The notes beneath the pieces were generated by a model. It saw only the letters and a program-made list of their open reading frames with translations, searched no databases and had not been told where the DNA came from. Both the position numbers and the translations under genes were made by a program. A stretch of 64,000 nt of DNA from Dictyostelium discoideum (lineage: Eukaryota): NCBI GenBank assembly GCA_000004695.1, contig CM000151.3:6240001-6304000 (forward strand). Direction: 5' to 3'. Below are positions 19,282 through 59,746 of the stretch, piece by piece. Positions within the stretch are counted from its first letter, which is position 1. The number at the start of each line of letters is the position of its first letter.

Positions 19282-19347
19282 TATAGAACCTTTGAAATTT
19301 TTTTTTTTTTTTAATTTGCAGATTTTATTCATTCATTTAAAAAAAGT

Positions 19348-19406
<59 letters not shown>

Positions 19407-19471
19407 TTCATTTATTTTATTTATTTATTTTATTTTATTTATTTATTCAATTTTTAATTTTATTTAAAAAT

Positions 19472-22432
<2,961 letters not shown>

Positions 22433-25976: not shown

Positions 25977-27838
25977 TTAATCATCAGCATCGGTTGGACC
26001 CATTTTTGGTGGTTTTGGACCACCAGCTGGTTTAGACATAATGATTTGATCGACTCTTAAAACGGTGTTAGCAGTGTTTGTAGCTAATTTAATTGCGAAA
26101 AGTTTTGAAGCAAAAGCGTCTAAAACATCCATTTCGAGTACAGATTTTGGTTGACCAGATTCAATATCTAAACCATAATTGGTATTACCTTTGGTATGAG
26201 CTGCATAAATATTTGAGATTGCTTTTGAGGAGTCGTGACCACTAGTTTCAGCAAGAGTTCTTGGAATGATTTCGAAAGCTTCAGCGTATTGACGAATTGA
26301 ATATTGAGAGAGACCTGGTGTAGCATCGGCAAAAGCTTGGAGTTTACGTGAGGCTTCAATTTCAAAAGCACCAGCACCAGCTAAGAATCTACCATCTTTA
26401 CACATACCTTTGAAAACGTTGACACCATCATCGATGGCACGTTCAATATCATCGAGAATGTTATTGGTTGAACCACGAACTACAATGGTGGAGATTTCAC
26501 TTTCTTCTTTATTTTGACGGAAAATACAACATTTGGTTGAACCGATCTCTTCAACGAGTACTTCATCACAGTAACCCAATTCCTCAGGGATAGGGGCACC
26601 CAATTTAACTAATGGAGTTGCACCGATTGCTTTACAAACACGACGTAATTGGAATTTAGATTGAATACGAACCAACATGATTTTGAATCTTTCAATGTAA
26701 TGTAAAGCCAATTCGGAAACGGTTGAACCAGAGATGATCACTTTGACACCGGTATTTGCGATGGCAGTGATTGTCTCTCTGATTGAATCTTCCTCACCTT
26801 TGGAGAATTGTAACAATTCATCCTCGTTGGTGATCAATACTTTACCAGTGGTTTCAGTACGACCTAAATCGATACCCATTGTGAAAACGGCGATTTTTGC
26901 TTTCTCCATTCTTTTGATGGTACCTTCGGCATCCATTGGGATGACGAAACCTTTGATTACACTTGTATCAGTTACGCCACCACCTGGAATCTTGGTGACT
27001 CTAACATTATCGATATTGAAATTAACTGCTTTCTTTGGTAAAACTTGAAGACATGCATTGGTGATAATCTCTGATAAAAATTCCTCATATCCATATTGTT
27101 TACTTGCGATGGCTGATTTCAAACATTTTGTAACCTCCTTCTTATCTGTAATATCCTTTAAATTGTATACAATCATTGATTCAATAATCTCTTGAAGTTT
27201 AGCACCTGCTTTTTCAAAACCAGTTATAATTTCACTTGGGTGAAGTCCCATCTCTAATAAAGTTGCTGCTTTTTGTAAAAATTCACCTGTTAATGTAACA
27301 ACATAATTTGTACCATCTCCCATCTAAAAATTATTAATAATAAAAAAATAATAATAATAATAATAATAAATATTGAAAATATTATAATTCAATTTTAAAA
27401 ATTGTATTGATTTGTAATTTTTTTTTTTTTTTTAGAAATAATAAATTTTTTAGGTTAAAATTTTCATTTAAATAAAAATAAAAATGGTGGTTAGTAATCA
27501 ATATTGTAGTGTTTAGATTTATAAATTTTGAGAGAGAGAAAAAAAAAAAAAAAAAAAAAAATATTACATACTTCTTGTTCTTGCATTTGAGCAGCCATAA
27601 CCAACATTTTTGCAGCTGGATGAATAACATCTAATTCTCTAATGATGGTTGCGGCATCATTTGTAACAAATAATTTCTCTAAATGATTGATGATCATTTT
27701 ATTCATACCATTTGGACCTAATGATGTTCTTGTAATCTCTGATAATTGTTTGGTTGCATCAATATTTCTTAAGATTGCTTCATCTTTGCCTGCAAAATGC
27801 TTTGCACCATCTTTTAACATATCAGTTAATCCTAACAT
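25977..27838 (-). CDS. cct8: T-complex chaperonin subunit theta (CCT8), 2 exons (27572..27838, 25977..27323), about 537 aa
   Basis: Exon 1 reads MLGLTDMLKDGAKHFAGKDEAILRNIDATKQLSEITRTSLGPNGMNKMIINHLEKLFVTNDAATIIRELDVIHPAAKMLVMAAQMQEQE with donor GTATGT. Exon 2 (acceptor tttttAG) reads MGDGTNYVV... and ends ...LRVDQIIMSKPAGGPKPP, the diagnostic CCT-theta C-terminus. Collinear with human CCT8. Confidence 0.9.
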
Positions 27839-28497: not shown

Positions 28498-29319
28498 ATG
28501 GTATTATATATTATTGGATTGGGATTAGGTGATGAAAAAGATGTAACAATTAAAGGATTTGAAGCAATAAAGAAATCAAGTAAAATTTATTTAGAAGCAT
28601 ATACATCATTATTAGGTGGATCAACATCAATTGAAGCATTAGAGAAATTTTATGAAAAAAAGATTATTATAGCCGATAGAGAAATGGTTGAATCAGGTTG
28701 CGAAGAAATGTTAAAAGAATCAACAGAGAATGATGTTTCATTTTTAGTTGTAGGTGACCCATTCGGAGCAACAACTCATACAGATTTAGTTATTCGTGCT
28801 AAAGAATTATCGATTCCAGTTAAAGTGATTCACAATGCCTCAATTATGAATGCAATTGGTTGTTGTGGTCTTCAATTATATAGTTATGGTCAAACCATAT
28901 CAATGGTATTCTTTACAGAAACCACCAAACCCGATAGTTGGTACGATCGTGTTAAAATCAATCGTGTCAATGGTATGCATACCCTCTGCTTATTAGATAT
29001 CAAAGTTAAAGAACAATCAATTGAAAATATGTGTCGTGGTCGTTTAATTTATGAACCACCAAGATTCATGACCGTTAATCAATGTATTGAACAACTCTTG
29101 GAAATTGAAGAAATACGTAAAGAAAAAGTTTACGATCAAGATACCCTATGCATTGGTTTATCTCGTGTTGGTCAAGATGATCAACAAATCATTTCTGGTA
29201 CTATGAAAGAATTATTAGATGTTGATTTTGGTGCTCCACTTCATTCTTTTATCATTTGTGGTGATATGCATTTCATTGAAAAAGAATATTTTGAAACTTT
29301 TAGAGTTAAAAAAAATTAA
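28498..29319 (+). CDS. dph5: Diphthine synthase (diphthamide biosynthesis methyltransferase), 273 aa
   Basis: MVLYIIGLGLGDEKDVTIKGFEAIKKSSKIYLEAYTS...FLVVGDPFGATTHTDLVIRAKELSIPVKVIHNASIMNAIGCCGLQLYSYGQ is collinear with the DPH5 family. Confidence 0.9.
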   Translation: MVLYIIGLGLGDEKDVTIKGFEAIKKSSKIYLEAYTSLLGGSTSIEALEKFYEKKIIIADREMVESGCEEMLKESTENDVSFLVVGDPFGATTHTDLVIRAKELSIPVKVIHNASIMNAIGCCGLQLYSYGQTISMVFFTETTKPDSWYDRVKINRVNGMHTLCLLDIKVKEQSIENMCRGRLIYEPPRFMTVNQCIEQLLEIEEIRKEKVYDQDTLCIGLSRVGQDDQQIISGTMKELLDVDFGAPLHSFIICGDMHFIEKEYFETFRVKKN

Positions 29320-30217: not shown

Positions 30218-30825
30218 TTTTTTTTAGAATTTTAGTTTTAATAATATTATACAATTTTTTATTTATTTATATATTTAAGATATTAAAATAAAACAAAATA
30301 AAAAAATAATAGATTATTTATAATTTTTTTTTTTTTTTTTTTTATTTTTTTTTTCTTTTTAATTTAAATTATTATTTTTTATATAAATTTTTATTTGTAA
30401 AATTAAATTTGCGTATAATTTAAATTATTTGAAAAATAACATATATTAAGATGAATCTAATTATCTTTTTGTTTTTTGATTTAAAAAAAACTTAAATTTT
30501 TTTTTTTAATCCTAGTTTGGGGGAATCTTTTTATTAAATGATTTTTGAAAAAAAAAAAAGTACAGTTTTAAAACGAATTTGTTTTTTGAAAAAACTTTTT
30601 TGGAATTTGCACCACAATTATTATTATAATACATTTTATTTATTTCTACACATATTATTTGAATTGTTTTTATTATTATTATTTTTTTAAAATTTTTTTT
30701 TAAGTCTTATAAAAAAAAAAAGTATAAATTAAAAAAAAAAGTTTAATAAAAAAAAAAAAAAAAAAAGATTTAATAAAATAAAATTAAAATAATCTTTGTA
30801 TAAAAAAAAAAAAAAAAAAAATAAA

Positions 30826-32073
30826 ATGTCCACAAAATATTTAATAATATTATTAATTTTAACAATTTCCAAAATTTCCGGATTTAATGAAATTGAACAA
30901 AAATCAATAGAAAATTATCATAATTACATAAGAATTAAAGCTAAATTATTTGGAGCAGAACCAAAGTCACCACTGAATCAAGTTAAATGGTCAAATGATA
31001 TTGCAAATAAAGTTCAAACATTTGTTAGTCAATGTAATTTAGGAGTACCACAAAATATTGAAGGAACTGGTTTTGCATTGTTTAAAGTGATGGGAAAAGA
31101 GTTTGATCCAGTTGACATTTTAAATAGAACTTTTGAAAGATCAGCACCACTATACGATTGGAGTACTGGTAATTGTAAACCTGATCAATGCTGCGACACT
31201 TATCAAACTATGATATGGAATACTTCAACTTCTGTTGGTTGTGCAAGTTCATACTGTTCAAGTGGTAGTTATAATTTCTTTGTCTGTGGATATTATCCAA
31301 TTGGTAATTTTGCAGGTATTAAGCCATATACACCAAAAGTGCAATCACAACTCACCGAAAATGGCAGCGGCGGCGGCGACACTAAATTAGAACCATCAGT
31401 AAAACCAATTTCAATTAATGTTTCATCTCGATTTATTTTACCAACAAGTTCAACTGGCGATGTTGATTGGAAATCATTAGGATTTGTAACATCAATTAAA
31501 AATCAAGGTCAGTGTGGTGGTTGTTACTCATTTGCAACATGTGCAGCATTGGAAAGTGCTTATTTAATTAAAAATAATCTTCCAAATACTGATATTGATT
31601 TATCAGAGCAAAACTTTGTTAGTTGTGTAAATTATGGTTGTGGTGGTGGAAATGGTCAATCATGTTTAGATAAATTAAAATCCACTGGTATTATGTATGA
31701 AACTAGTTATCCATATAAAGCTGTTACTGGAAGTTGTCCAAATGTAATTCAAAGTCCACAACCATTTAAATGGACAGGTTATTCAAATATTCAAGGTAAT
31801 AAAGAAGCATTTTTAAATGCATTAAAATCAGGTCCAATCTATGCATCATTATATGTGGATAGTGGTTTCCAACTTTATAAATCTGGAATTTATTCATGTT
31901 CTCAATCTTCAACACCCAATCATGCAATTACAATCGTTGGTTACTCAAGTGCTGATAATTCCTATTTAATTAAAAATAGTTGGGGTACAATTTATGGAGA
32001 ATCCGGTTATATTCGTTTAAAAGAAGGTTCATGTAATTTATATTCTTTTACTGGTATAACTACACAAGTTTAA
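30826..32073 (+). CDS. Secreted fusion of an SCP/CAP/PR-1 domain with a papain-like (C1) cysteine protease domain, about 415 aa; no classical propeptide
   Basis: Signal peptide MSTKYLIILLILTISKISG. The CAP motifs are YHNYIR, W...A.KVQTFVSQC, GCASSYC...FFVCGYYPIGN. The C1 catalytic domain reads DWKSLGFVTSIKNQGQCGGCYSF (Gln and Cys), NHAITIVGY (His), NSWG (Asn). I chose the ATG at 30826, not the poly-Lys start at 30796. Confidence 0.75.
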   Translation: MSTKYLIILLILTISKISGFNEIEQKSIENYHNYIRIKAKLFGAEPKSPLNQVKWSNDIANKVQTFVSQCNLGVPQNIEGTGFALFKVMGKEFDPVDILNRTFERSAPLYDWSTGNCKPDQCCDTYQTMIWNTSTSVGCASSYCSSGSYNFFVCGYYPIGNFAGIKPYTPKVQSQLTENGSGGGDTKLEPSVKPISINVSSRFILPTSSTGDVDWKSLGFVTSIKNQGQCGGCYSFATCAALESAYLIKNNLPNTDIDLSEQNFVSCVNYGCGGGNGQSCLDKLKSTGIMYETSYPYKAVTGSCPNVIQSPQPFKWTGYSNIQGNKEAFLNALKSGPIYASLYVDSGFQLYKSGIYSCSQSSTPNHAITIVGYSSADNSYLIKNSWGTIYGESGYIRLKEGSCNLYSFTGITTQV

Positions 32074-32282: not shown

Positions 32283-32962
32283 TTAAGTTGAACCAAAAAC
32301 ATATTCACTAACTTTTGAAAAGAATGATGGTCTTGAGGGTGTTCCTAATGCATTATTATTTGAAAATGATTGTGGGTCATAATCTGATCTTGCTGGATGA
32401 TATTTCTTTTCAATTGTTTTCAAAGAGTGATCACCAAGTTGTGATGGTTGTGCTTTAATTGGATCTGATTCATTTCTCTGTTAATTTTTTTCAAAAAAAA
32501 TAAATAAATAAAAAATAATAAAAATAAAAAAGAGTTAGTTTTTTTTTTTAAAACTTTGGAATTATATAATTAATAAATACATACAATTTTTTCTTTACAA
32601 GGTACAATACCAATCATACAATTTCCTAAAATTAAACCATTCTTTTTTAATAAATCGATTGAAGAATATTCAGATTCAAATTTCAAATAAATCCAATTAC
32701 AATTTGGTTGTTGAGGATATTCAATCTCAATGATATTACCATATTTTGAGAGTTCATCAACGATTAAATCCGTTTTATCGTGAGAGAAACCAAATACAGT
32801 TAACCAACGTTTATCATATTTATCTAAAAACATTTGAGTAATTTGTTGAGATGCTACACTTTGAACGAAAATATTACTAGTTGTTGGTGTAATTAAATTA
32901 TTATTATTATTATTTTGTTGTTGTTGATTATTATAAGGTGTTGATTGTTGTTGTAGTTGTAG

Positions 32963-32993
<31 letters not shown>

Positions 32994-33026
32994 AGTTGTT
33001 GTAGTTGTTGTTGTTGTTGTAAATGA

Positions 33027-33105
<79 letters not shown>

Positions 33106-33958
33106 GGAATTGTTGTTGATTATAAATATTTAAAAATGGTGAATTCGTAGCTACTGTGCTATTATTATATACATTATTTTGTAATGGTGTTTGTGATTGA
33201 TTATTATTATTATAGAATGATGGTTGTTGATTATAAATACTTTGATTTAAATCTTGAGCTGATAAAGGTGATGATGTCTGTTGTTGTTGTTGTAATTGTT
33301 GATATTGTTGTTCAACTTGATTATATAGATAATTTTGAGTATTTTGTTGATGCTGTATATTTGCATTTCTTTGATGTAATCTTTGTTGTTGATTTTGTTG
33401 ATGTTGTGATAGAATCTGTTGTTTCAATTGCTTTGGTTCTTCATAGATCGAATTCACAGGAATTGATAATAAATCATTATTTTGATTATTTATTTGATTA
33501 TTGTTATTATTATTGTTGTTACTATTATTATTGCTATTGTTATTATTGTTATTATTATTATTATTATTACTATTATTTGTACCACTTATACTTGTACCAA
33601 TACCAAAACGTCTATTTAAATTTGGTGTATTCATATTTATATTTGAATTACCATCTTGATAACCAAAAGCATGATTTGAGGATGGACTTGATGATGATGA
33701 TGATGATGGTGGTTGATATGGTCCCATTGATCTACTATAATATGAAGAGTATGGTGTACCTGGTGTTTGAGAATTTGATGGACTTTGCATTTGATTTATT
33801 GGTGAATTAGTACTATGTGGTGGACTTGATAAATTACCAATATTATTCTTATCCTCATTACTCTTATCTTGTGATGAAAATATTCTACTTGGTATATATT
33901 GTCTATTTATTTCATTTGAATTTGAATTTAATTTTGATGAACTTGCATTTAAATTCAT
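32283..33958 (-). CDS. nup35: Nucleoporin Nup35/Nup53 (MPPN) homolog, 2 exons (32585..33958, 32283..32477), about 522 aa
   Basis: The Q/N-rich N-terminal part is followed by an RRM-like domain RWLTVFGFSHDKTDLIVDELSKYGNIIEIEYPQQPNCNWIYLKFESEYS...GNCMIGIVPCKEKI (compare human WVTVFGFP...IGVKPC) with donor GTATGT. Acceptor ttaacAG. The terminal exon ends ...SFFSKVSEYVFGST, the conserved C-terminal amphipathic helix (compare human SKAMEYMFGW). Confidence 0.75.
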
Positions 33959-34207: not shown

Positions 34208-35509
34208 TTATTTTTCTTCACTATTTTGGTTATCAATAGTTGTAGTTGAAATTGTAGTGGTAGTTGTAGTAGTAGTAGTATTACTATTACTATTATTATT
34301 ATTATTATTTAAATCAGATGGAAAATAACTAATACCTTCACAAGTTATTAAATTTGTTTCTTCACCAGATTGAGTATTATTAGTTAATGGTGTAATTGTA
34401 AAAATAGCACCAGTCATTAAAGATGTTATATGAATTGAAGTTTGAGTATGTAATGAGATTGGACCAGTTTTAATTTGACTTTTACCTTTTGCTAAAGCCA
34501 TGAAAATGATTAATTGATCTTGAAGGTATTCATCCATACAACCACCATCTTGCAAATCTTTGAGTAAAGAATTTGCAGCATCTTCTGCGACTTTTTCAGC
34601 AGGTACACCAATTGCACCATTTCCAGTTGCACCAAATATACAACCTTGGTCGGTGTATGCCCTAATTTCAATGAATGTACCATCACCAAAACTAAATTTA
34701 CTCACATCGATTAACTCTGTTTCAACATCCACCTTTTTAAAATCCTTTTTTATTAATTTCTTTGCAGTGTTATTCATCCTCTCTGCTACCAATGGTGATA
34801 TTCTAGGCGACGTGAAATAGGACTTGATTACAATTCTATTCACCTCACCCTTATTCACTATGGTGATTGGCGAGAGTGGTTGTGTGAGTGGTTGGGTTGT
34901 CAATGTGACAGCGCCGCCGCCCTTTGGGTAGAACCCTCTTTTATCAATACTCATCTCACATTTAAATCCCATAGTTGTTGCAATTGGTAGGAAAACATTT
35001 TGAATATAGTCTGCAGCTGGTGCAAAATCACAATTTGTTCCACCACCCAATACCATCTTTGTGGAATGTGGTGCAAAGATTAAACATGGTAATGAAACTT
35101 GAATCATCAAACAAATACTACCAGCTGTTTTAGTATCAGCTTCAATTACACCATCATCTTGAATTGTCTTTTGTGTTGGTTGATAATAAAGTTTACATGA
35201 ACCAACACTACAACCTGTTAAATGAGCTTTAAATAAACGTGACATTAAATCAATACCAGCTTTATGTTGATTTTTCAATCCTGGTTGATCTCTATTATAC
35301 CTAATCTTTTCAATTGAAATGGCTTTATTAAATAATGATGCTAATGCAACTGAATTTCTTAAAATTTGACCACCACCTTCTAAAATTGATCCATCAATTT
35401 TAAAATCTGGTTTTTCTTCAATTGTTTGTTGTTGTTGTGCTACTGTGGTATCATTATTTGTTTTTGATTTTTTAAATTGATTTTTATTATAATTTTTATT
35501 TTTACCCAT
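34208..35509 (-). CDS. rtcA: RNA 3'-terminal phosphate cyclase (RtcA family), 433 aa, single exon
   Basis: IDGSILEGGGQILRNSVALASLFNKAISIEKIRYNRDQPGL at the N-terminus and ...DQLIIFMALAKG...ISLHTQTSIHI near the C-terminus (the cyclase His-containing motif); collinear with the RtcA/Rcl1 family. Confidence 0.8.
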   Translation of the reverse strand: MGKNKNYNKNQFKKSKTNNDTTVAQQQQTIEEKPDFKIDGSILEGGGQILRNSVALASLFNKAISIEKIRYNRDQPGLKNQHKAGIDLMSRLFKAHLTGCSVGSCKLYYQPTQKTIQDDGVIEADTKTAGSICLMIQVSLPCLIFAPHSTKMVLGGGTNCDFAPAADYIQNVFLPIATTMGFKCEMSIDKRGFYPKGGGAVTLTTQPLTQPLSPITIVNKGEVNRIVIKSYFTSPRISPLVAERMNNTAKKLIKKDFKKVDVETELIDVSKFSFGDGTFIEIRAYTDQGCIFGATGNGAIGVPAEKVAEDAANSLLKDLQDGGCMDEYLQDQLIIFMALAKGKSQIKTGPISLHTQTSIHITSLMTGAIFTITPLTNNTQSGEETNLITCEGISYFPSDLNNNNNNSNSNTTTTTTTTTISTTTIDNQNSEEK

Positions 35510-35917: not shown

Positions 35918-37640
35918 TTAAGTTGAATTTCTTCTTCTATGATTTGAATTAAAGGGTTTTGCTTCTGCTAAATAATTTTTATTTAATTCCAAAAGACTTT
36001 GAAAGTTTACATATAAAAAGTCATCAAAATTTGCATTTGTATTTTGATTGATTGTAATTGAATCTAAATTTGATGTTGTTGCAGTTGCAGTTGCAGTAGT
36101 GGAAGAAGTTGATGGAGGTGAAGTTGTTAAAATAGTGGAAGATTCCTTATTTTGATTTTGATTTTGAACAAAAGGTTTACAAGATTCAGCGAAATCATCA
36201 GAAACTTTATAAATTTCTTTTCTTGGATCAAAGTAACTTGTATCTTGGAGATTTTCAATCTTTGGTTTAAAGTATGGTTCTTGAGTTAAAATTGTTTTCC
36301 AATTTATTGATTTAAAGAATGGATGAGATTTAATTTCTTCAGCACCATTAAAACCTAATCTTTGTCTTGGGTCTAAAGCTAACAATTTATCAATTAAATC
36401 TCTTGCTTCAGGACTCATATCTTCAGGCCAAGAAATATTTCTTTGAAGAATATTTTGAAAAGTTTCTTGAACACTTGAACCATTAAATGGAGAAACTCCA
36501 CAAAGAAATTCATAAAGTATAACACCTAATGAAAACCAATCAGCTGATGCACCATGACCAATTCCTAAAAGAATTTCAGGTGCTAAATAATCTGGTGTAC
36601 CAACACAACTTAATTTTCTATGTATATTATGTGGTGGTAATGGTGGTGTTGTTTGTTGTTGTTGTTGAGATTGTTGTTGAGATTGTTGACCAGTAGTTGT
36701 AGTGGTTGTAGTTGTAGTAGTTGTAGGAATATTTGAAATTGGTTGTTGATTAATTGGTGGTGGTGGTATAAATCCTTTTACACCCATCATCATTGGAGAT
36801 ATTGGTTTATCACTATTCAATAAATTTAATGAAGGAATTGATGGTGAAGATGATGCTGAAAATAATGACTTAGATTGAGCTAATGATAATAATTTCTTTT
36901 CTTTCTTTGCTGGTATTGCAGTATTGCTTGGAATTGGAGTTTCAGTATTAATAACATGACCACCTACCATCGTTGCTCCAGTTGTATTGTTGTTATTGTT
37001 ATTGTTATTTGTACTACTAATATTTGAACCAATAGTATTAGAACCACCAATATTTGATACTGATGATGATGATGATGATTGATTATTTTTACCAGATAAA
37101 GTTGGACTAAAATAAGAAGGTGGTACAACAGTTTGTCTATCTAATAATCCAACCTTACTAAGACCAAAATCTGTTAATTTTATATGGCCTTTCTTATCTA
37201 TTAAAAGATTATCAGGTTTAACATCACGATGAACAATACCATGACTATGTAAATATTCTAATGCCAAGACAGTCTCTGCAATGATCATTTTTGCCATATT
37301 TTCATCCATTGACCCTAACATTTGTAATAATGAAAAGCAATCACCACCTTGTAAATATTCCATAACCAAATAATAATATTCCTTTGTTTGAAATGAATAA
37401 TACATCTTTACAACAAATGGATTACTTGTATAGGCTAAAATATTTCTTTCAACTTTGACATGATCCAATTGGTTCTTCTTTATCATATCAGATTTCTTTA
37501 ATCTCTTTATTGCATAAATATCACCAGTTCTAATCTTTTTAGCTAAAAATACTTTTCCATATCCACCTTTTGTAATTGGTTTAATAAATTCAAAATCTGA
37601 TATAGTTGGTACACCTTTTGGTTTATATTCAATTTGCTAA

Positions 37641-44186: not shown

Positions 44187-47100
44187 TTAATTCCAATTCA
44201 AAATTACAACTAAAACAGTGATATTATCACCTGAACCTCTATCATAAGAATCTTGAGCTAATAATTCTGAAATTTCAGTTGCACTTTTTCCCAATTTTAT
44301 ATTTCTTTGAACAAATTGAACGGCTTCATCATATTCGACCTTATCCCAAAGACCATCACAAGCCAAAATGAAGAAATGATCACGAGCAGTGAGATCGGTT
44401 GTTGTTTGATAAGGATCAGAGACACAAAACTTCTTTTCACCCTCTTTGTACTCCTTATCACCAAACGATCTACTAACAGCCAATGAACCAAACAAACGAT
44501 TGAAAATGATCATACCACCCAAATCGGTGACTCTCTTCTTTTCTTGGTCATCACTTGCCAAATGTTTGTAGGAGAGTAAAACCGGTTCATAGGTGACGGG
44601 TCCTTTAGGATTTGCATTTGGTTGAGCACGTGCTAAAACTATCTCTGAATCGCCTACATTTGCAGTGTAGAGTTTATTTCCAACCAATAGAGCCGATACA
44701 CCTGTGCTACCACTCTTTTCACATTTTTCAATTACAATATCATCAGCTTCAGCGTATGCATCACGGAAAGCTTGTTCATAGTCACCATCTCGGAAACTTT
44801 GAGAATTGACCAAACAATTATGAACTGTTGGCTCCAAGAGTGTTGAGGTTTCAGTACCACCATGACCATCATAAACTGCATAGTATGAGATTGGTATATC
44901 CTTTGGTGGACCATTGTAGGTTACTGCCCCCATTAGATTATTCAAAATCACATGAGTATCCTCCATATTCTTTCTTCTACCTTGTAGTGAACCGAAACCA
45001 GATTCAAGTTTAATTTTACTACCAACACCACCATTACCGCAACTATCAGCACCATTCTTTTTAGATTCAGCTGCACCATCGACTTTACTTGTCTTCTTCT
45101 CCTTTGGTGGTTTTGTTGGTTTTGGTTCTTTTGGTTCTTTTGGTTCTTTTGATTCTTTTGGTTCTTTAATTGGTTTTGGTTCTTTTGGTGGTTTTGATTC
45201 CTTTACAGGTTTTTCTTTTGGTTCTTTTATTGGTTTTGGTTCTTTTGGTGGTTTTGGTTCTTTTGGTGGTTTTGGTTCTTTTGGTGGTTTTGGTTCTTTA
45301 GGTGGTTTTACAGGTTTTGGTTCTTTTGGTGGTTTTCCTTTTCCAATTACTACCGTTGCATTATTGTTATTATTATTAGTAGAGTCTGTTGTTGTTGCTG
45401 TGGTAGTGGTTGTTGTTGTTGTAGTAGTAGTAGTTGGTAATAATGTCATTGAAGAAGTTGGTGATGATTCATTACTATAACTACTATCATTATCCATTGC
45501 ACTTGCAATTGAATTACTTATACTACCAGTTGTTGATATAACTGAACTTGGGAATGTTGATGATCCATATGTTGTTGTATTATTGTTGTTATTATTATTA
45601 TTATTTACATTTTTTAATCGAGTATTATCATTATCACTACTATATAATCCAGGTATTGAAACTGAAGTATTTGGTAAACGACTATTCCTAGATGAATTTG
45701 AACCAATTGATGAAACTGGTGATGAATTTGATTGATTATAAGGTGTTGTAAAACCTCTTTTCTCTGCATCAATTTTTAAACTATCAAAAATACCTTCAAA
45801 CTCTTCTCTAACATTATTTTTATCTAATAAATTTACAATATGACTTTTATATGGTTTATCTTTATTTTGTAACTTTTTTTTTTTAAAAAAATAAAATAAA
45901 AAATTTAAATTAAAATAAATTAATATTGATTATTTTAATAATAATAATAATAAATAATGATAAAATCTAATACATACGAATTTTGTAAATTTATTTGATA
46001 TAAAAGATACAGCTTTTTCAGGATCATTACCACCTTCATATTCAGAGAAACAAGATTTTAAATCATATTGTTTAATATTTTCATAAAAGATATCACTTGT
46101 ATTAAAAATTAAATAAATTGCTAATGATTTATCAAATAATTCAGATTTTGTTAAAGTTTCAAATGAATTTAATGATTCTAATAATAAATTTCTATGAATA
46201 TGATTATTACACATTTCAACAATTGTTGGATCTGTATTTTGTGTTGCAACTAAATGATCTGAAAAATAACTAAAAATAAATATAAATATTAAATAATTAA
46301 TTATCATAATAAATTATTTTGGTTCGTTTGTTTGTTTGTTTGTTTGTTTGTTTGTTTGTTTGTTTGTTTGTTTGTTTGTTTGTTTGTTTGTTTGTTTGTT
46401 TGTTTGTTTGTTTGTTTGTTTGTTTGTTTGTTTGTTTGTTTAATATTAATTCTTTCACTTACTCTTTTAAAGCTACAACATAAAATATATAATTTGGTTT
46501 ATAATTTTGATGTAAACCAACCCAATTCTTTGGTGAAGATTGTTTACCTGAACATCCAAATAAATCCACTTTAAATCTTTTATGAATGATTGCTGATGAT
46601 TGAATAGTATCCTTTTGATCATATGCACTAATAATATCCATCTCTGTGGGTGTATAACTTGGATCAAATACTTTAAACATTCTATCCATATAACTATAGA
46701 GTTTTAAATACTAAATTAGTATATGTAAATAAAGAATTAAATAATAATAATAATAATAATAATAATAGTAATAATGTATTTTACTTACTATTTTGGTCTA
46801 CCAGGAGTTCTAATTTCTGAACAAATTTTTGAATGATTATAAACTGATTGAATTACTTTATCTTCCCAAATACATTTACAATCCCAACCTAATTTTAGGG
46901 GGAATCTTGGTAATCTATTTCTAGCCAATTCAACTGGTTGACTTTGTATTCTTTTAACTCGAGCTAAATTATCAGGTGATAAGGTTATATTTAATCTTTC
47001 ACTATTCTCAATGAAACGAATTAACGTTGCCAATGTATTACCATAAATCAAACGTTGATAATGCTTTGCATCGGTTGGATCTGTAACGCCATATATAAAT

Positions 47101-47507
47101 TCCAACTGTCTTTGTAATGTAGTTTTACCACTCTCTGTATGTCCTAATATCATAATAGTTCCACAAAAATCATGTGCTTTTAATATTGGTACCGCTGTAT
47201 TATTATTATTATTGTTATTAGATGATATCGATGATGAATTTGTTGTATTTGTATTTGTATTAGTAGTATTATTAACACTACTATTTGATGATGTCGAAGT
47301 TGATAATTGCGCTAAATTTTGTTCATTTTGTTTTTGTTGTTGTGCTAATTGTAATTGTTGTTGATGCTGTTGATATTGTAATTGTAATTGTTGTTGCTGT
47401 AATTGATATTGTTGTTGTGCCAATTGATGTTGTTGTGCTAAACTACTATGAGCTGGTGACTGTTCTTCTTTCTTTTCTTTTTTATTCATAAATAACATTT
47501 TCTTCAT
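44187..47507 (-). CDS. spnA: Spalten-type protein: a G-protein alpha-like domain fused by an Asn/Ser-rich linker to a PP2C phosphatase domain; 4 exons (46789..47507, 46463..46693, 45978..46269, 44187..45872). The model gives 975 aa
   Basis: Exon 1 has a Q-rich leader, then G-alpha blocks ILGHTESGKTTLQRQLEFIYG ... IWEDKVIQSVYNHSKI, with donor GTAAGT in phase 2. Exon 2 reads YMDRMFKVFDPSYTPTEMDII...VDLFGCSGKQSSPKNWVGLHQNYKPNYIFYVVALK (compare [28 protein letters not shown]) with donor GTAAGT. Exon 3 reads DYFSDHLVA...SLAIYLIFNTSDIFYENIKQYDLKSCFSEYEGGNDPEKAVSFISNKFTKF (compare ILFLNKKDLFEEKI...YPEY.G) with donor GTATGT. Exon 4 reads LQNKDKPYKSHIVNLLDKNNVREEFEGIFDSL (the G-alpha C-terminus), then the linker, PPKEPK repeats and PP2C motifs (YAVYDGHGG; LACDGLWD; DRGSGDNITVLVV). 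The architecture matches Dictyostelium Spalten; its length is recalled from memory, not verified. Confidence 0.85.
46326..46441. repeat. (GTTT)n microsatellite, about 29 units, inside spnA intron 2
   Basis: Direct reading: gtttgtttgttt... uninterrupted across 46326-46441. Confidence 0.9.
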
Positions 47508-52324: not shown

Positions 52325-52641
52325 ATGCAAAATATTGAAGAATTAGTTCAACAATTATTAATTGGCGATGAAAATGTTGGGTTTATTAATGTTCCATCAA
52401 AATTTGAGAGCGATCAACAACAACAACCACAACCAACATCCACAAATAAAAAAAATACAAATGATGATAAGAATAAAATCAATACAGTAAAGATACCAAT
52501 TTCAATGGCATTATTAGATCAATTAAGTACATTGAAATCATTATCTGCCACTTTACCATCATCACCAACAATACCACCAACCAGTACAACCCATACTGTT
52601 GGTACCTCAACTTCAACTACACCATCTAGTAATTCAACATC

Positions 52642-52686
<45 letters not shown>

Positions 52687-54669
52687 GAATAATACATCAC
52701 CACCAACATCAACTACAAATACTAGTAGTAGTAGTACAACAACCTCAAATGTAACACCATCATCAATTTTAATTGAATATGAAAATAGGATAAATGGAAT
52801 TAAACAATTAATTGAAAAGATATTGAATAAAGAGATTCCAGATTATAATTCAAAAAAGTTTGTAGTAAATTTTGATTTTTCAAGCTACCCTTCATCTGCT
52901 GATTCAATTGTGAAGGATATATTGGATAGTTATGACGGTGATTTACAAGAAGAGCAAGCAAACTACGACATGGAATTGGAGAGTAGTGGTGGCCATTTTA
53001 GTCACCACAGTAACGATATATTTGGCCCATCACCATCACCACGTGGTGCGAATTCAATCCCCAATGGTTATACAAGCTATAGATTACACTGGGCCAGTAT
53101 CATTGTTAAATTACATCAAGCAATTCTTTCAAGTTCTCTTTACCAAAACCTCTTGAAAAAGATTTACAATGTTAATGCATCTTCACAATTAACATCCTCA
53201 CAAACTTTAGTTGACTCTTTGAAAGATCCAAAAATACAATCGAAAAAAATTAATTCAAGTTTATCCTCAAGTTCATTGGTAAACAAACAATTATCATCTT
53301 CAAGCGATAACTCTTCCACTTTGGATAGTAGTGATACAACAACCACCACAACTGCCGCAAATTCAAATGCAAGTGGCTTTGCTAAATCCTCAAAAGTCAA
53401 TGACTTACAACAAGATGGTAGTGTCATTCAATCAACAAAATCAACTCCAACCACTCCACCATCTGCTTCACCTTCAACAAGTTTTCGTGGTCTTACTGGT
53501 ACTAGTGCTGATCAAGATGCTATCTTATCAATTAGTAAACAACAACCTACTTCTCCAAGTTTAGGTAAATCACTATTCTCTAGTGTAATTGGTAATAATA
53601 ATAATAACAATGTTAATAATAATAATAGTAATAATAATAATAATAGTGGTAGTTATAATAATAACAATAATAATAATAATAAAGGTAGTACAACAAGTAG
53701 TTCAGGATTTTCATTATCTGCTCTAATGTCTGGAAATAGTCGTGATGCACCACCTGCTCTTAAAGATTTAGCTGATCGTTCAACAAAATATGATCAAGGT
53801 AAAGGCATTGGTATCGATATAAATAATAACCCACTACATCAATTGCAACCACCATCAACAAATGGTGCTACTGGAGATAGATATAATCCAAATATTAATA
53901 AGTTACCATCATCCTATGAAACTGATCCAGTTTTACTTCCAGATGGTTCAACATTTGATAATACAAGACAATCATCTTCAACATCGACTTCATTATCTTC
54001 AAATCCAATATCATTTGTATCACCAACAAGCAATAATAATATTCTTCCAACAAGTCAACCTGGATCTTATAGTGGCAGTAAACCTATTCCAATGAATAAT
54101 ACCAATTCATTATTCTCACCACCATCAAATAATCCATTATCAACATCATTTGGTATGCCAGGTAGAAATAGTAATAGTAATAATAATAATAATTTCCTTT
54201 CAACTTCACCATTTGATGCACCAGGCTCTTTAACTAGTGGCGGTATGCCACCAACAAGATATCCAGATTCATTCTTTTCAACATCTGCCTCTTCAAGAGC
54301 TCCCCCAGCATGTGATGCAATTCCATCCTCAAATGTTATTCAAATTCCACAATCAAACACTAACGCTGGTAGTTCAATGTTATCAGTTTCGCCATCACCA
54401 TCATCATTAAACAACAACAATATGATTGTTGGTAGTTTATCAAGTGCAAGCAATCCATTATCATCATCTGGTGGTTTTAATAGAATGCAAGGTAGTGGTG
54501 GTTTCGAATTAAATCAATCTGGTTCAAATATTTCTCAACCAGTTATTGTGCCACCTACAACTTCTTCAATCCCAATTAATGTCCAATCATCTTCATATTC
54601 ATCAAATTCTTCTAATCCTATATTTTCTTCATCACCAAATTCTCAATTATTATTACAACAACAACAATT

Positions 54670-54710
<41 letters not shown>

Positions 54711-57700
54711 TACAACAACAATTACAACAACAATTAACTCCACAAATGCCAGCAATTGGTTCAACAATTGTACCTGCTTCAAGTTCATTTAAAGCACCAT
54801 CTCAACTTGATCTTTTATCTTCACAAACAAGTACATCATCAATTTCAACTCAATCTGGTGTTTCAAATACATCATCATCATCATCTTCTTCTTCTTCTTC
54901 CTCATCAAGTTCAACATCTACAACAAGTTCAACATTAACTTCAGGAGTTTCAAATGGTGGTGATAATTCAAATATGAATACAATTAATATTTCAAATAAA
55001 GCTCATATGGATGATACAGTTAAATCTTTATCAAAACCAATTGTTGGACTTTCAGATCATAAATTCCCAGAATGGTTAGATATTACAATTTATTGGAGAA
55101 ATGATGAAACTTCAAATGTTGTTGTTGTTGATGATAATGATATTTCTAATGGTATAAATTTAGAAATTAAACAAATATTATTAACTGAACAATCAGCTGG
55201 TAGATTAGATCATTATTTAGAATCTAAATTAGTTACATCAATTCATAATAGGTTATTGAATATTATTGAATCCAAAACCAATGAATGGGTTGAACCTATT
55301 TATAACTATTGGATAAAATCTGTGGATATCGAATATCATAATGAAATTACCAACTCTTTCCAAAACTTTATTCAAGAGTTTAACAGTCATATTTGGGATA
55401 ATAGAAAATATCAAGCATTCTTAAATAGAATTGTAAATCTTCGTAGACAATTCCCACCACCACCATCATCATCACACCAACCAGCACCAAATACACCAGC
55501 ATTGTTAACAACAACCAAAGGTATACCAATACCAATTCAAAAGAATTCCCAACAAGAAGAGATTGAAATGTCAAAGATATTCAAACAACTCGAATTGGAC
55601 ATCATTTATTTGATCTCAGTTCAACATTATTACTCTTTGAAATATATTGAAAAACTTTTAATTGGTACAATGGGTCATACTTCTGCTGATGTTAGACAAT
55701 CTTCAGTACGTTTATTAAATGTTATCTATGATTCCCATACTTGGCAATTTGAAGAACCATTAAAACCAGTAATAAGAGTTATTGGTGATGCTTTTAGAAT
55801 TGAATTAGAATTGGACCAACCATTACCTGAAAATGTATTAAAAAGAATTTATATTACAACAGTTCAACCACCAACTCAAAGATTAACAAACTTTAAATCG
55901 AGTACTATTAAAATTGGTGGTACTTATGGAAAAAATAAACAAAACTTACAATCATCATCAGCAATTTTCACAAAACATAAACCTAAAGTTGATGGTTGTA
56001 AATTATATATAGATTTACCATCATTCTATAGAGCTGGTTATTATGATTGGAGAGTTGTTGAATTAAAATCAAATGGTAAATTTGTTTCATTTGATTTTGA
56101 AACTTTTAAATTAAAATCATCAAAAGATGAAAACTATAAACAAACAGATAGTGCATCATCATCATCATCATCAATTAATGATAATCAACCAATGATATCA
56201 GATGAAAATGAAAAAATTCAAGGTAGATTTATAGTTCATCCAAAATTAAGAGAAGAAATTATGCATGAAGTTTGGGTAGATTTACAAGATTCAATTTGGG
56301 ATCCATATAGAGGTGAAATGACAAAAAAAGGTAGAATTCAAAATTTAATTGATGCTTTAGATCATTATCATCAAGAGGGTATTACTACACTTTATGTTAT
56401 GGGTTTATTAGAGAAATTACCAAGTAATCAACCATTATGTCCAACCGATAGAGATTTAGCAAATCGTTTAATTGGTGGTGATCAAATGTTCTCACAATTG
56501 GTTAATAGAGCTAAACAATTGGGTATAAAGATTGTTATCGATTCAACAACTCGTTTATCATCCAAAGCAGCCCATAGAAAATATAAAGGTGTGGTTTGTC
56601 ATACTTTGGATAATAATGGTCAACTCTCAAGATTGGAAGGTACCGATAGTTCAGAGTTCACTTGGAATGATTGTGTCTCTATGAATATGCGTAAACTTTC
56701 AGTTTGGGAAATGTTTGTTCAAGAGACTTTATTATGGGGTGATCGTGGTGTTGATGGTATTCGTATAGATAGTGCTCATACATGTCCATTGTTATTCAGA
56801 TCGAATTTGGATGAAATGTATCGTTTGGATAGTGATGATTTACCACATTATACCAATCAACAAATCTTTGAGGGTGAAATCGTTATGAAACCATCGGAAG
56901 AAGGTAAAAACTTTGGCTATTGGGGTACAACACCACCCTCACCAAAACATTCAACTCCTTTCTATCCAAATCCAATTTTCATTAAAATGACCAGAGAGGT
57001 TTGGAATCGTTTCCCACAATTTGTATTTCTTGCTGAAGTTTATTGGGATCGTGAATTACATTCAATCATTTCAGGTTTAGTGCCCTATTCTTCTGCAATT
57101 CCAAAAGCATTGGCATCGGTTTTCGATAAAGGTATCAGTAAAGATGGTATTGTTTTCGATTTAAGACAACGTCAATCAGTAAAAGCACTCTATGATTATT
57201 ATGAAATGCGTATGTCAACTTATCCACAAAATTCAATTATTCTCTATCCATCATCGACTCATCACTCTCCATATCCATTACAAATTTACAATGCTGGTGC
57301 GTGGGCTGCCGTCGATCTTATGTATTTCCTACCGGAAATTCCAATTACCTATATTGGTGAACAAAATGGTTGGTACTATCATGTTGATATTCATACAAGT
57401 CGTGTAAAAGTTGGTATGTCTGCAACACCCTATCAATTACAATATCCTCAAATTCGTGGTCATTATGCTCATCGGGTGGCACTTAGAAAATCTCATGCTT
57501 TATTACGTCGTGGTGGTATGATTCCATTGTTATGTTACCATGCAACCGGATGGCATGATCGTGTATTTGGTTTCGCACGTTTCTCTGGTAATGAAGTTGC
57601 AATCATTGCAATCAACTTTGACAATACCGACACGGAATTCTATGTCGATTGTTCACCATTGGCAAAGATTTGTTCAGATGATACAATCTATAGAATGGTG

Positions 57701-59746
57701 GATTTAATTAATCCAAGTAATCCACCACAATATTTATCATTGAACGAACTACTTCATGAAAAACATTTTGTAGTTGTACCAGGTTATTCAAGTATTTGTT
57801 GGGGTATTTATCATCAAGTTGGTTCACCTGCCGCAATGAGAGTACTCTATGAACATTCAATGACTCGTCTAAAACAATTGTTAGCAGATGATGTAGATCC
57901 ATCAAATAATTTAATTTATTCACTTATTAAAAAGAGTTTATCATCAATTGAAGAATTTGGTAAAACTCTTGAAAATATCTTATCAAATCTATCAGGTAAT
58001 ACTGAAAAAACATTTAGTAGTTTTGTTCAATCAGTACTTTACACCTTAACCAAAACCTTTGATGGTGCAACCATATTACAATATTTGGATGTTTTATCAA
58101 AGAAATCTACTCAGTCACCAAAAATTCCAAAGATTTGTCGTGAAATTTTACAACATAATACATTGGGTCCGATTGTATTTGTAACACCAGAGATTGGTCG
58201 TTTCTCAACAGTTGGTGGTGTTGGTGTAATGTTGGATGAATTAACAAGAAGTTTGCAGTTGTTAGGTTGTGAAGTTCATATTATTTCACCTTATTATAAC
58301 TATGGTAAAGGTGGTAGAACTGGTTATTTAGAAAAGGAAGAAGGTATTCGTTGGAAGAGAAATGTTTTAACCTATGTTGGACCAGATCGTGTTGAAGTTG
58401 GTGTTCATGAAGGTATGGATAAAGGTATTCATTTACACTTTTTACATCATTTCGAATACTTCCCAACACCCTATAACTCTGGTTCACCAATTCATCAACT
58501 TAAAACCATTGTATTATTTGCAAAAGCATCATTGGAATTACTTTGTCAATTAAGAATTTTACCATCAGTTGTTGTAACCAATGATTGGTTCACTGGTTTA
58601 GTTCCAGGTTATGCAAAATCGGGTGCATTTGGTACCACTTTCAATGGTACTACATTCTTCCATTTGGTACATAATCTTGAAGAAGCTTATCAAGGTAGAA
58701 TTTATCCTGATAGTGGCGACGATTTAAATTGGATTCATCATCTTCATCGTGAATTGATCGTTGATCCATATTCACATCAACTTTGTTTGAATGCATCAAG
58801 ATGTGCCTTGTTAACTTGTAATAATTGGGGTACCGTATCCAAATCTTATCTCTATGATCTATTAAGAACCAGTCATTTAGCAAATCTTTTACATAGATTC
58901 CCTGAAGCATTTGCTCATTCCAATGGTATTAGAGTAAAAGAAAGAAAACAAGCAATGAAAGCAGTTTCCACCGATCATTGGAGTGCAAAGGCAGAGCTAC
59001 AAAAGAAATATTTTGGATTGGTCGATAAATCAATACCAGTACTTAGTTTTGTTGGTAGAATTGTATTACAAAAGGGTGTTCATTTAATTTTGAATGCCGT
59101 TAGAGAATTGATTGGTCATTATCAAGGTAAAATTCAAATTTTAATTGGTGGTATGGCAAATATGAAAGATCCCTATGCAAGTAGTTGTGCTTGGTCAATG
59201 CAAGCATTGTGTAAACAATTCCCACAATCATTTTGGGCTGACCCTGATTCATTCTTTTCAGATGGTCCATTGGTTAATTTAGGCTCAGATTTTGGTTTAA
59301 TGCCTTCATTATTTGAACCAAGTGGTGTTGTACAACAAGAATACTTTGTTGCTGGTACACCAGTTATCGCTTTCAAAACTGGTGGTCTAAAAGATACAGT
59401 TTTCGAATATAATACCAACACTGAAACTGGAAATGGTTTCACTTTTGAAGCTCATAAACATACAGATTACGTTCAAGCCGTTCATCGTGCCATCAATATT
59501 TTCAATAACACTCATCATTATGAAAAAATTCGTAAATGTGCTGAAGAATCAGTTTTAGATATGTCTGTTGTTGCTGAAGCTTGGGCAAAAGAATTCTCAA
59601 GAATGAGAAGATCAATTTGGTCAACCAATCATCAATTACAAAGACTTAATGAAAAACAATCTACTGAGGTTATTGATAATAGAGATAATCATTCATCATC
59701 AACTCAACCGTTAAATTCTCAAATTAAACAACCACCACAACAATAA
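52325..59746 (+). CDS. Giant fusion protein (2473 aa, single exon): about 1000 aa of S/T/N/Q-rich low complexity, then a GH13 alpha-amylase-like catalytic domain, then a GT5 (starch/bacterial-glycogen-synthase-type) glucosyltransferase domain; alpha-glucan synthase-like
   Basis: GH13-like blocks: GIKIVIDSTTR, GDRGVDGIRIDSAHTCP (region II, Asp nucleophile context), FVFLAEVYWDRE (region III Glu). GT5 blocks: PIVFVTPEIGRFSTVGGVGVMLDELTRSL (KTGGLxDV-like), ...VLSFVGRIVLQKGVHLI..., LFEPSGVVQQEYFVAGTPVIAFKTGGLKDTV (the E...G...TGGL.DTV motif). Confidence 0.8.

What the first reader, a model, noticed from the sequence alone, without database searches (positions are those of the whole stretch)
44187..47507. 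Spalten-type G-alpha-like/PP2C fusion gene reconstructed across four exons (975 aa)
The ORF track splits this into four unrelated ORFs. Splice reconstruction gives a single protein with an N-terminal heterotrimeric-G-alpha-like domain, a poly-Asn linker, (PPKEPK)n repeats and a C-terminal PP2C domain. This is the architecture of Dictyostelium Spalten, required for cell-type differentiation. It also fixes the organism assignment.
Basis: partly seen in the sequence, partly recalled or inferred. Interest (0 to 1): 0.55.

Follow-up and report, generated by a model that had tools for sequence, protein, structure and literature searches.

The report
Dictyostelium Spalten (spnA) gene, correctly reconstructed

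Summary
On the minus strand, four exons (47507-46789, 46693-46463, 46269-45978, 45872-44187) join through three GT..AG introns of 95, 193 and 105 nt. The result is a 2928-nt CDS and a 975-aa protein with no internal stop. Pfam finds one continuous G-alpha match (residues 91-445, E=7.5e-62) that crosses all three junctions, and a PP2C match (705-965, E=9e-73).

No RNA data were available, so the splice model rests on comparative evidence:
- GT/AG is conserved at all six sites in three sister species.
- Exons 2 and 3 have no indels, while the introns diverge with indels that are not multiples of three.
- The P. violaceum gene model has introns at the same positions and phases.

Three neighbouring ORFs are exact matches to D. 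discoideum AX4 proteins, which settles the organism. The Spalten protein record and the Spalten literature could not be retrieved with these tools, so the name rests on my memory plus the architecture, organism and length.

Additional points:
- Recent public annotations split this gene into two "hypothetical proteins".
- The PP2C catalytic residues are intact.
- The G-alpha-like domain keeps its P-loop but lacks the catalytic Arg and Gln and has degenerate G3-G5 motifs. It is still under strong purifying selection (dN/dS about 0.06-0.09).

Verdict: already known, low interest.

The parts
44187..47507 (-). Complete CDS span of the gene (ATG at 47507, TAA at 44189-44187); 975-aa product
   Evidence: joined CDS of 2928 nt with no internal stop
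46789..47507 (-). Exon 1 (719 nt, ends in phase 2): N-terminal Q/N/T-rich region, P-loop and helical-domain part of the G-alpha-like domain
   Evidence: the exon-1 ORF is an exact match to KAM9945911.1, a 'hypothetical protein' of D. discoideum
46694..46788 (-). Intron 1 (95 nt, GTAAGT..AG, 12% GC)
   Evidence: GT/AG conserved in 4 species, 66-70% identity with non-3n indels versus D. citrinum and D. dimigraforme; same position and phase in P. violaceum
46463..46693 (-). Exon 2 (231 nt): switch I/II-equivalent region of the G-alpha-like domain
   Evidence: no indels and 95-99.6% identity across sister species
46270..46462 (-). Intron 2 (193 nt, GTAAGT..AG)
46322..46441 (.). (GTTT)30 microsatellite inside intron 2 (AAAC on the coding strand)
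   Evidence: 99% matches; a 102-103-nt indel relative to two sister species falls in intron 2
45978..46269 (-). Exon 3 (292 nt, ends in phase 0): G4-equivalent (NTSD) region
   Evidence: no indels, 92-99.7% identity
45873..45977 (-). Intron 3 (105 nt, GTATGT..AG, 6% GC)
44187..45872 (-). Exon 4 (1686 nt including stop): end of the G-alpha-like domain, low-complexity linker, PP2C domain
45780..47237 (-). G-alpha-like domain (residues 91-445; spans exons 1-4, introns excluded)
   Evidence: Pfam PF00503, E=7.5e-62, profile positions 4-332 of 333 in one stretch; 27% identity to G-alpha-i1
45093..45338 (-). P/K/E-rich (PPKEPK)n repeat, residues 593-674, within the 228-aa low-complexity linker (residues 463-690)
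   Evidence: TRF 18-nt unit x 11.2 copies
44220..45002 (-). PP2C (PPM) phosphatase domain, residues 705-965
   Evidence: Pfam PF00481, E=9e-73; aligned to human PPM1A/PPM1B with catalytic residues kept

Best explanation
The region is one protein-coding gene of Dictyostelium discoideum AX4. It lies on an 8.48-Mb contig, which from memory is the size of chromosome 2. It has four exons and three short AT-rich introns and encodes a 975-aa fusion protein. From memory, this is spnA (Spalten).

Shown here:
- The C-terminal domain keeps every PP2C metal-binding and catalytic residue I checked, so it should be an active Mg2+/Mn2+-dependent Ser/Thr phosphatase, the effector half.
- The N-terminal domain has the full G-alpha layout and an intact P-loop.
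- It lacks the switch I arginine (Tyr264) and the switch II glutamine (Lys290).
- Its DxxG, NKxD (NTSD) and TCAT (VNLL) motifs are degenerate.
- It has no N-terminal Gly2 lipidation signal, and its alpha5-helix equivalent is internal rather than C-terminal.
- Both domains evolve under strong constraint, while the linker evolves freely.

Inferred:
- The G-alpha-like half is a regulatory and targeting module for the tethered phosphatase, not a receptor-coupled heterotrimeric GTPase that cycles by hydrolysis.
- It may still bind nucleotide through its P-loop.

From memory only (Aubry & Firtel, Genes Dev 1998):
- The PP2C domain is the effector.
- The G-alpha-like domain is needed for membrane targeting and regulation.
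- The gene is required for development past the mound stage and for prestalk gene expression.
For: Gene model:
- The join gives an open 975-aa frame with consensus donors.
- A single Pfam G-alpha match crosses all three junctions, and PP2C follows.
- Versus D. citrinum and D. dimigraforme, exons are 86-96% identical and exons 2 and 3 have no indels. Introns are 63-71% identical with non-3n indels. GT and AG are conserved at all six sites in four genomes.
- The same projection gives intact 971-, 982- and 988-aa ORFs in the sister species.
- The protein is collinear with the two-domain P. violaceum protein, with no gap at any junction.
- The independent P. violaceum gene model has three introns at the same positions and phases, 2, 2 and 0.
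- PP2C coding sequence lies directly downstream of the G-alpha-like gene in T. lacteum and A. subglobosum.

Organism:
- There are exact matches to AX4 proteins XP_643254, XP_643259 and XP_643263 on an 8,484,197-bp contig.

Mechanism:
- PPM1A residues R33, E37, D38, D60, G61, H62, D146, D239 and D282 all align to identical residues.
- The G-box table versus G-alpha-i1 shows Y264 invariant in all orthologues.
- dN/dS is 0.06-0.09 for the G-alpha-like domain, 0.04-0.07 for PP2C against the two more distant species, and 0.34-0.58 for the linker.
Against: - No transcript evidence could be consulted, so the junctions are inferred from sequence and comparison only.
- The curated SpnA sequence could not be retrieved. 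The exact 975-aa protein is 'not in the collection', so identity to SpnA is untested.
- Recent automated annotations of D. discoideum and three sister species call two genes here, about 237 aa plus about 730-745 aa.
- The claim that the G-alpha-like domain cannot hydrolyse GTP rests on alignment to G-alpha-i1 at 27% identity. The switch II region could be aligned with a 2-residue shift (DLFGC against DVGGQ). That shift restores the DxxG pattern in the D. discoideum clade only and still lacks the Gln.
Confidence: 0.93

Rival explanations
1. Two independent genes, as in recent public annotations: a short 239-aa G-alpha-like protein (exon 1 only) and a separate protein of about 731 aa starting at an internal Met in exon 2 and carrying the PP2C domain.
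For: NCBI records of D. discoideum (KAM9945911.1, 239 aa, an exact match to the exon-1 ORF) and of D. cf. discoideum, D. citrinum and D. dimigraforme (237/236/241 aa plus 729/745/742 aa) are annotated this way. T. lacteum is likewise split into G-alpha (544 aa) and PP2C (258 aa) genes.
Against: - Exon 1 alone would end the G-alpha fold after the helical domain, yet the Pfam G-alpha match runs as one stretch through exons 1-4.
- The exon-1 ORF stops only by reading 2 codons into a consensus GTAAGT donor.
- The 95-nt gap behaves like an intron: 12% GC, 66-70% identity, non-3n indels.
- P. violaceum and one A. subglobosum paralogue are annotated as single two-domain proteins, and the P. violaceum model has an intron at the same phase-2 position.
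- The split models look like artefacts of automated gene calling.
Confidence: 0.03
2. The gene is real but uses one or more different splice junctions, for example the alternative intron 3 with donor at 45973 and acceptor at 45860, which gives 972 aa.
For: Enumeration finds 12, 7 and 19 other frame-preserving, stop-free GT..AG pairs for introns 1, 2 and 3. No transcript data were available.
Against: Every alternative deletes residues that are conserved in orthologues. All but those sharing the model's own donor use non-consensus donors. Only the proposed set gives gap-free alignment to P. violaceum, T. lacteum and A. subglobosum at all three junctions and matches the P. violaceum intron positions and phases.
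Confidence: 0.03
3. A decaying pseudogene or a chance juxtaposition of domain fragments.
For: The G-alpha-like domain has lost the canonical catalytic Arg and Gln and has degenerate G3-G5 motifs.
Against: Intact ORFs are present in four species. dN/dS is 0.06-0.09 for the G-alpha-like domain and 0.04-0.07 for PP2C. The substitutions at the lost catalytic positions are themselves conserved, for example Tyr264 in every orthologue. The fusion is conserved across dictyostelid genera.
Confidence: 0.01

Closest known systems
Spalten (SpnA) of Dictyostelium discoideum (Aubry & Firtel, Genes Dev 1998; UniProt O15743, 975 aa; all recalled from memory, not retrievable with the tools)
   Same: Organism, G-alpha-like N-terminus + charged low-complexity linker + C-terminal PP2C, and a length of 975 aa, which matches my recollection. 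A neighbouring gene product carries UniProt accession O15746, numerically close to the recalled O15743; this is only a weak hint.
   Different: Nothing detected. Residue-by-residue identity could not be tested because the record is absent from the accessible databases.
Heterotrimeric G-protein alpha subunits (e.g. mammalian G-alpha-i1, PDB 1GIA/1AS0)
   Same: Full-length match to the G-alpha profile including the helical-domain insert. The best PDB hits are all G-alpha-i/o (E about 1e-27). The P-loop GxxxxGK[ST] is conserved.
   Different: - Only 27% identity.
- Arg178 is replaced by Tyr and Gln204 by Lys.
- DVGGQ, NKxD and TCAT are degenerate.
- There is no MG lipidation signal.
- The alpha5-helix equivalent is followed by about 500 more residues, so there is no free receptor-coupling C-terminus.
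PPM/PP2C phosphatases (human PPM1A/PPM1B, plant ABI1/HAB1)
   Same: Full PP2C profile match (3-255 of 255). All metal-coordinating Asp residues, the phosphate-binding Arg and the His are conserved.
   Different: Fused to a G-alpha-like domain through a long low-complexity linker. It lacks the C-terminal helical extension of PPM1A, since the protein ends right after the catalytic core.
Dictyostelid orthologues: P. violaceum CYY_003095 (877 aa), A. subglobosum P0037 (899 aa) and the split model P0007, T. lacteum DLAC_11569 + downstream PP2C
   Same: Same two-domain architecture and the same degenerate G-box pattern. The same intron positions were shown for P. violaceum only.
   Different: 45-53% identity over the aligned residues. 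The Q-rich N-terminal extension and the (PPKEPK)n form of the linker are specific to the D. discoideum clade; other species have K/E-rich linkers instead.

Membership tests
Spalten (SpnA) orthogroup | N-terminal G-alpha-like domain | tested here: met
   PF00503, E=7.5e-62, residues 91-445
Spalten (SpnA) orthogroup | C-terminal PP2C catalytic domain | tested here: met
   PF00481, E=9e-73, residues 705-965; catalytic residues conserved
Spalten (SpnA) orthogroup | Both domains in one polypeptide (one spliced mRNA) | tested here: met
   Genomic and comparative evidence only: an open joined frame, conserved GT/AG, the exon/intron divergence pattern and conserved intron positions. Not tested at the RNA level.
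Spalten (SpnA) orthogroup | Sequence identity and collinearity with the curated D. discoideum SpnA record | not testable with these tools
   The exact sequence and its cluster are absent from the collection. Collinearity was shown only with orthologues.
Spalten (SpnA) orthogroup | Encoded in Dictyostelium discoideum | tested here: met
   Three neighbouring ORFs are exact matches to AX4 proteins; the exon-1 ORF is an exact match to a D. discoideum record
Spalten (SpnA) orthogroup | Required for post-mound development and prestalk differentiation | not testable with these tools
   Genetic phenotype; recalled from the literature only
Canonical heterotrimeric G-alpha GTPase | P-loop GxGESGKS[T] | tested here: met
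   GHTESGKTT: G122, G127, K128 and T129 are conserved in all orthologues. The position equivalent to G-alpha-i1 Gly42 (the Ras Gly12 equivalent, from general knowledge) is Thr124.
Canonical heterotrimeric G-alpha GTPase | Switch I catalytic Arg and Mg-binding Thr (RxxTxGI) | tested here: not met
   R178 aligns to Y264, invariant Tyr in 8 of 8 sequences; T181 aligns to K267
Canonical heterotrimeric G-alpha GTPase | Switch II DVGGQR with catalytic Gln | tested here: not met
   The aligned segment is GCSGKQ (or DLFGC with a 2-residue shift); there is no Gln at the catalytic position in any orthologue
Canonical heterotrimeric G-alpha GTPase | Guanine-specificity motifs NKxD and TCAT | tested here: not met
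   NTSD (Asn and Asp kept, Lys lost) and VNLL
Canonical heterotrimeric G-alpha GTPase | N-terminal Gly2 myristoylation/palmitoylation signal and a free C-terminal alpha5 tail | tested here: not met
   The N-terminus is MKKMLFMNKK; the alpha5 equivalent is followed by the linker and PP2C
PPM/PP2C phosphatase | Conserved metal-binding acidic residues and phosphate-binding Arg (PPM1A R33, E37, D38, D60, G61, H62, D146, D239, D282) | tested here: met
   RRKNMED, YDGHGG, NVGDS, ACDGLWD and GSGDN all align to the corresponding PPM1A/PPM1B motifs

The most novel reading that the evidence does not exclude
The G-alpha-like half of Spalten-type proteins is a conserved pseudo-GTPase. It keeps the G-alpha fold and P-loop, but across the family a fixed 'SAYD' motif replaces the switch I arginine, and the switch II glutamine is missing. 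It would therefore control the tethered PP2C by static nucleotide binding, or by nucleotide-independent docking or membrane targeting, rather than by a receptor-driven GTP hydrolysis cycle. The family also extends beyond the D. discoideum clade: there are two paralogues in A. subglobosum, and distant fusions at 33-42% identity come from unidentified sources (P0040, P0041). The original 1998 paper may already discuss part of this; I could not check.
Probability: 0.45. Interest if true: 0.3.

Novelty: already known. Interest (0 to 1): 0.12.

Why it matters
It matters little as a discovery, because the gene and its unusual architecture were described in 1998 (from memory). It is useful in three ways:
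- Recent public Dictyostelium annotations break this gene into two "hypothetical proteins", and comparative evidence can correct that.
- It documents that the G-alpha-like domain lacks the canonical hydrolysis residues yet is as constrained as the phosphatase. That points the mechanistic question (how does a G-alpha-like module control a PP2C?) away from a classical GTPase cycle.

Tried and rejected
- **Exact look-up:** the joined 975-aa protein is not in the collection. Look-ups of the 729-, 742- and 731-aa 3' products, meant to reach a named cluster, also found nothing.
- **Homology searches:** three searches (full length, G-alpha-like domain alone, and a 4-sequence profile) returned only dictyostelid entries named 'hypothetical protein' and an unnamed EukProt entry. 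None was named Spalten. The full-length search was limited to 8000 scored candidates, probably dominated by low-complexity words.
- **Literature:** 'spalten' + 'dictyostelium' (with or without 'PP2C'), 'spnA', title phrases, and the DOI and PMC id of the 1998 paper all gave nothing usable.
- **Exhaustive HMMER scan:** I ran P0001 instead.
- **Origin of distant fusions:** P0040 is not on record. P0041 comes from assembly GCA_020536535.1, which I could not name.
- **tRNA scan of the window:** none found.
- **Structure prediction:** considered and not run. The Pfam and PDB sequence matches already establish both folds, and the tool gives no inter-domain error estimates that could test autoinhibition.
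- **Readings rejected:** two genes, alternative junctions and a pseudogene; see the rival explanations.
Full report
**1. What is in the sequence**

The window is extremely AT-rich: 10-40% GC per kb, with GC-richer coding islands. Between 44187 and 47507 the mechanical ORF list shows four separate minus-strand ORFs of 239, 76, 125 and 436 aa. A three-frame read of the minus strand shows each open stretch running into a GTAAGT- or GTATGT-type donor and resuming after an AG.

Joining 47507-46789, 46693-46463, 46269-45978 and 45872-44187 removes introns of 95, 193 and 105 nt. The introns are 12%, 20% and 6% GC, against 21-34% for the exons. The join gives a 2928-nt CDS encoding 975 aa with only the terminal stop.

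**2. Domains**

Pfam reports G-alpha (PF00503, E=7.5e-62) as one stretch over residues 91-445, covering profile positions 4-332 of 333 and therefore crossing all three junctions. It also reports PP2C (PF00481, E=9e-73) over residues 705-965.

Between the two domains lies a 228-residue low-complexity linker rich in P, K, S, T and N. It contains N9, T12 and N6 runs and a P/K/E repeat at residues 593-674. The repeat is encoded by an 18-nt unit in 11.2 copies at 45103-45309. A Q-rich segment (residues 25-60) and an N/T/S-rich segment precede the G-alpha-like domain.

**3. Is the splice model right?**

No transcript data were available, so I tested the model by comparison.

- *Sister species.* Exon-1-only "hypothetical proteins" from D. 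cf. discoideum, D. citrinum and D. dimigraforme led to their loci.
  - In a four-way DNA alignment, exons 2 and 3 have no indels and are 92-99.7% identical.
  - Introns fall to 63-71% identity against D. citrinum and D. dimigraforme, with many indels that are not multiples of three.
  - GT and AG are conserved at all six splice sites in all four genomes.
  - Projecting the same exon boundaries gives intact ORFs of 971, 982 and 988 aa.
- *Orthologue alignment.* The joined protein aligns without any gap at the three junctions to the two-domain P. violaceum protein CYY_003095 and to the T. lacteum and A. subglobosum homologues.
- *Intron positions.* Mapping the P. violaceum protein onto its locus shows three introns at homologous positions with the same phases, 2, 2 and 0.
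- *Alternative junctions.* Other frame-preserving GT..AG pairs exist (12, 7 and 19 for introns 1, 2 and 3). All of them delete conserved residues.

I regard the model as established short of RNA evidence.

**4. Organism**

Three single-exon ORFs elsewhere in the window match D. discoideum AX4 proteins exactly: DDB_G0276121 (XP_643254), Dph5 (XP_643259) and RNA 3'-terminal phosphate cyclase (XP_643263). They are on record on a contig of 8,484,197 bp.

The gene region is only about 91-93% identical in DNA to D. cf. discoideum, and the protein is 96% identical. The window is therefore D. discoideum proper.

The fusion architecture alone would place the window only within the dictyostelids or a wider group. 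It occurs in Polysphondylium, Tieghemostelium and Acytostelium, where PP2C coding sequence lies directly downstream of the G-alpha-like gene. A. subglobosum has a second paralogue, P0037. More distant fusion proteins, P0040 at 42% and P0041 at 33% identity to P. violaceum, come from sources I could not name.

**5. Is it Spalten?**

I could not run the decisive comparison.

- The exact 975-aa sequence is not in the protein collection, and no search returned a D. discoideum full-length entry.
- The literature library holds no paper containing both "spalten" and "Dictyostelium", and the 1998 paper is not held.

From memory, Spalten (spnA; Aubry & Firtel, Genes Dev 12:1525, 1998; UniProt O15743, 975 aa) is the D. 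discoideum protein with an N-terminal G-alpha-like domain, a charged inter-region and a C-terminal functional PP2C. It is required for development beyond the mound stage and for prestalk gene expression. The PP2C is the effector, and the G-alpha-like domain is needed for membrane targeting and regulation.

Organism, architecture and length all fit, so I assign the name with high but not complete confidence.

**6. How it most likely works**

*Shown:* the PP2C domain aligns to human PPM1A/PPM1B with R33, E37, D38, D60, G61, H62, D146, D239 and D282 all matched by identical residues. It should therefore be catalytically competent.

*Shown:* the G-alpha-like domain is 27% identical to G-alpha-i1, and its best PDB hits are all G-alpha-i/o. 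The motif comparison with G-alpha-i1 is:

| G-alpha-i1 feature | Window protein | Conservation in orthologues |
|---|---|---|
| P-loop GAGESGKST | GHTESGKTT (G122, G127, K128, T129 kept) | Kept in all |
| Arg178 (switch I) | Tyr264 | Tyr in all eight sequences |
| Thr181 (switch I) | Lys267 | Variable |
| Gln204 (switch II) | Lys290 | No Gln in any |
| DxxG | Degenerate | Degenerate |
| NKxD | NTSD | Asn kept, Lys lost; Asp kept except in T. lacteum (Glu) |
| TCAT | VNLL | NLL in all sequences that cover it |

It printed the expected motifs at the expected indices, and visual comparison of the aligned segments with the PDB alignment showed no difference.

The protein has no Gly2 lipidation signal, and its alpha5 equivalent is internal.

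Despite these losses the domain is strongly constrained. dN/dS is 0.06-0.09 for the G-alpha-like domain and 0.04-0.07 for PP2C against the two more distant sister species. It is 0.34-0.58 for the linker and 0.28-0.40 for the N-terminal low-complexity region.

*Inferred:* the G-alpha-like half is a regulatory and targeting module that may bind nucleotide. It cannot run a canonical Arg/Gln-dependent hydrolysis cycle and is unlikely to couple to receptors like a heterotrimeric G-alpha.

**7. Annotation note**

The exon-1 ORF is an exact match to KAM9945911.1, [quoted passage not shown]. The three sister assemblies carry the same split into products of about 237 aa and about 730-745 aa.

T. lacteum is split into G-alpha and PP2C genes 38 nt apart. 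The A. subglobosum model P0007 ends exactly at the intron-2 donor read-through. These look like gene-calling artefacts affecting one conserved fusion gene.

**8. Verdict**

The feature is a known gene, so novelty is "already known" and interest is low. The only mildly new angle is the family-wide loss of the GTPase catalytic residues under strong constraint, which the original paper may already discuss.

Noticed in passing
window 46322-46441 (inside intron 2): A 99%-perfect (GTTT)30 microsatellite. Intron 2 carries a 102-103-nt indel relative to D. cf. discoideum and D. dimigraforme, most likely at this array, so the array appears expanded in this genome.
   Followed up: partly
window 46788-47507; L001:10001-13247; L002:6001-9293; L003:6001-9355; L005:5001-7710: Public automated annotations of D. 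discoideum (KAM9945911.1), D. cf. discoideum, D. citrinum, D. dimigraforme and T. lacteum split this single fusion gene into two 'hypothetical proteins'.
   Followed up: yes
L008:2001-4925 and L006:5001-8038 (Acytostelium subglobosum): A. subglobosum carries two G-alpha-like/PP2C loci on different scaffolds. One is annotated as an intact 899-aa fusion (P0037). The other is split into 256-aa and 515-aa models, with PP2C coding sequence confirmed by tblastn.
   Followed up: partly
P0040 (666 aa) and P0041 (747 aa; L007:2001-5068, GCA_020536535.1, 46% GC): These are more distant proteins with both G-alpha and PP2C Pfam domains, at 42% and 33% identity to the P. violaceum orthologue. They lack the dictyostelid poly-N/T runs and keep the 'AYD' motif in place of the switch I Arg. 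The source organisms are not identified.
   Followed up: partly
window 52325-59746 (+): A 2473-aa uninterrupted ORF with a C-terminal starch-synthase-type GT5 + GT1 glycosyltransferase region (residues about 1950-2390) and a long N-terminal part without a Pfam match. A syntenic gene of about 2460-2500 aa is present in the sister species.
   Followed up: no
window 30796-32073 (+): An ORF combining a CAP (cysteine-rich secretory protein) domain with a papain-family Peptidase_C1 domain. I did not examine this pairing further.
   Followed up: no
window 16669-37486: Neighbouring genes identified:
- DDB_G0276121 (Tr-type G domain), 16669-18807 (+)
- RabGAP-TBC + EF-hand, 19292-22432 (+)
- An exon of CCT-theta, 25980-27323 (-)
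- Dph5, 28498-29316 (+)
- Nup35-type RRM, 32570-33958 (-)
- RNA 3'-terminal phosphate cyclase, 34211-35509 (-)
- A protein kinase, 35918-37486 (-)

Source.
   Followed up: partly
window 47478-47507 (protein residues 1-10) and orthologue N-termini: The N-terminus has no Gly2. Instead, a short hydrophobic stretch followed by a KK[DE]KK-like basic motif is conserved across dictyostelid orthologues. This may relate to the membrane targeting I recall for the G-alpha-like domain. The Q-rich segment (residues 25-60) is confined to the D. discoideum clade.
   Followed up: no
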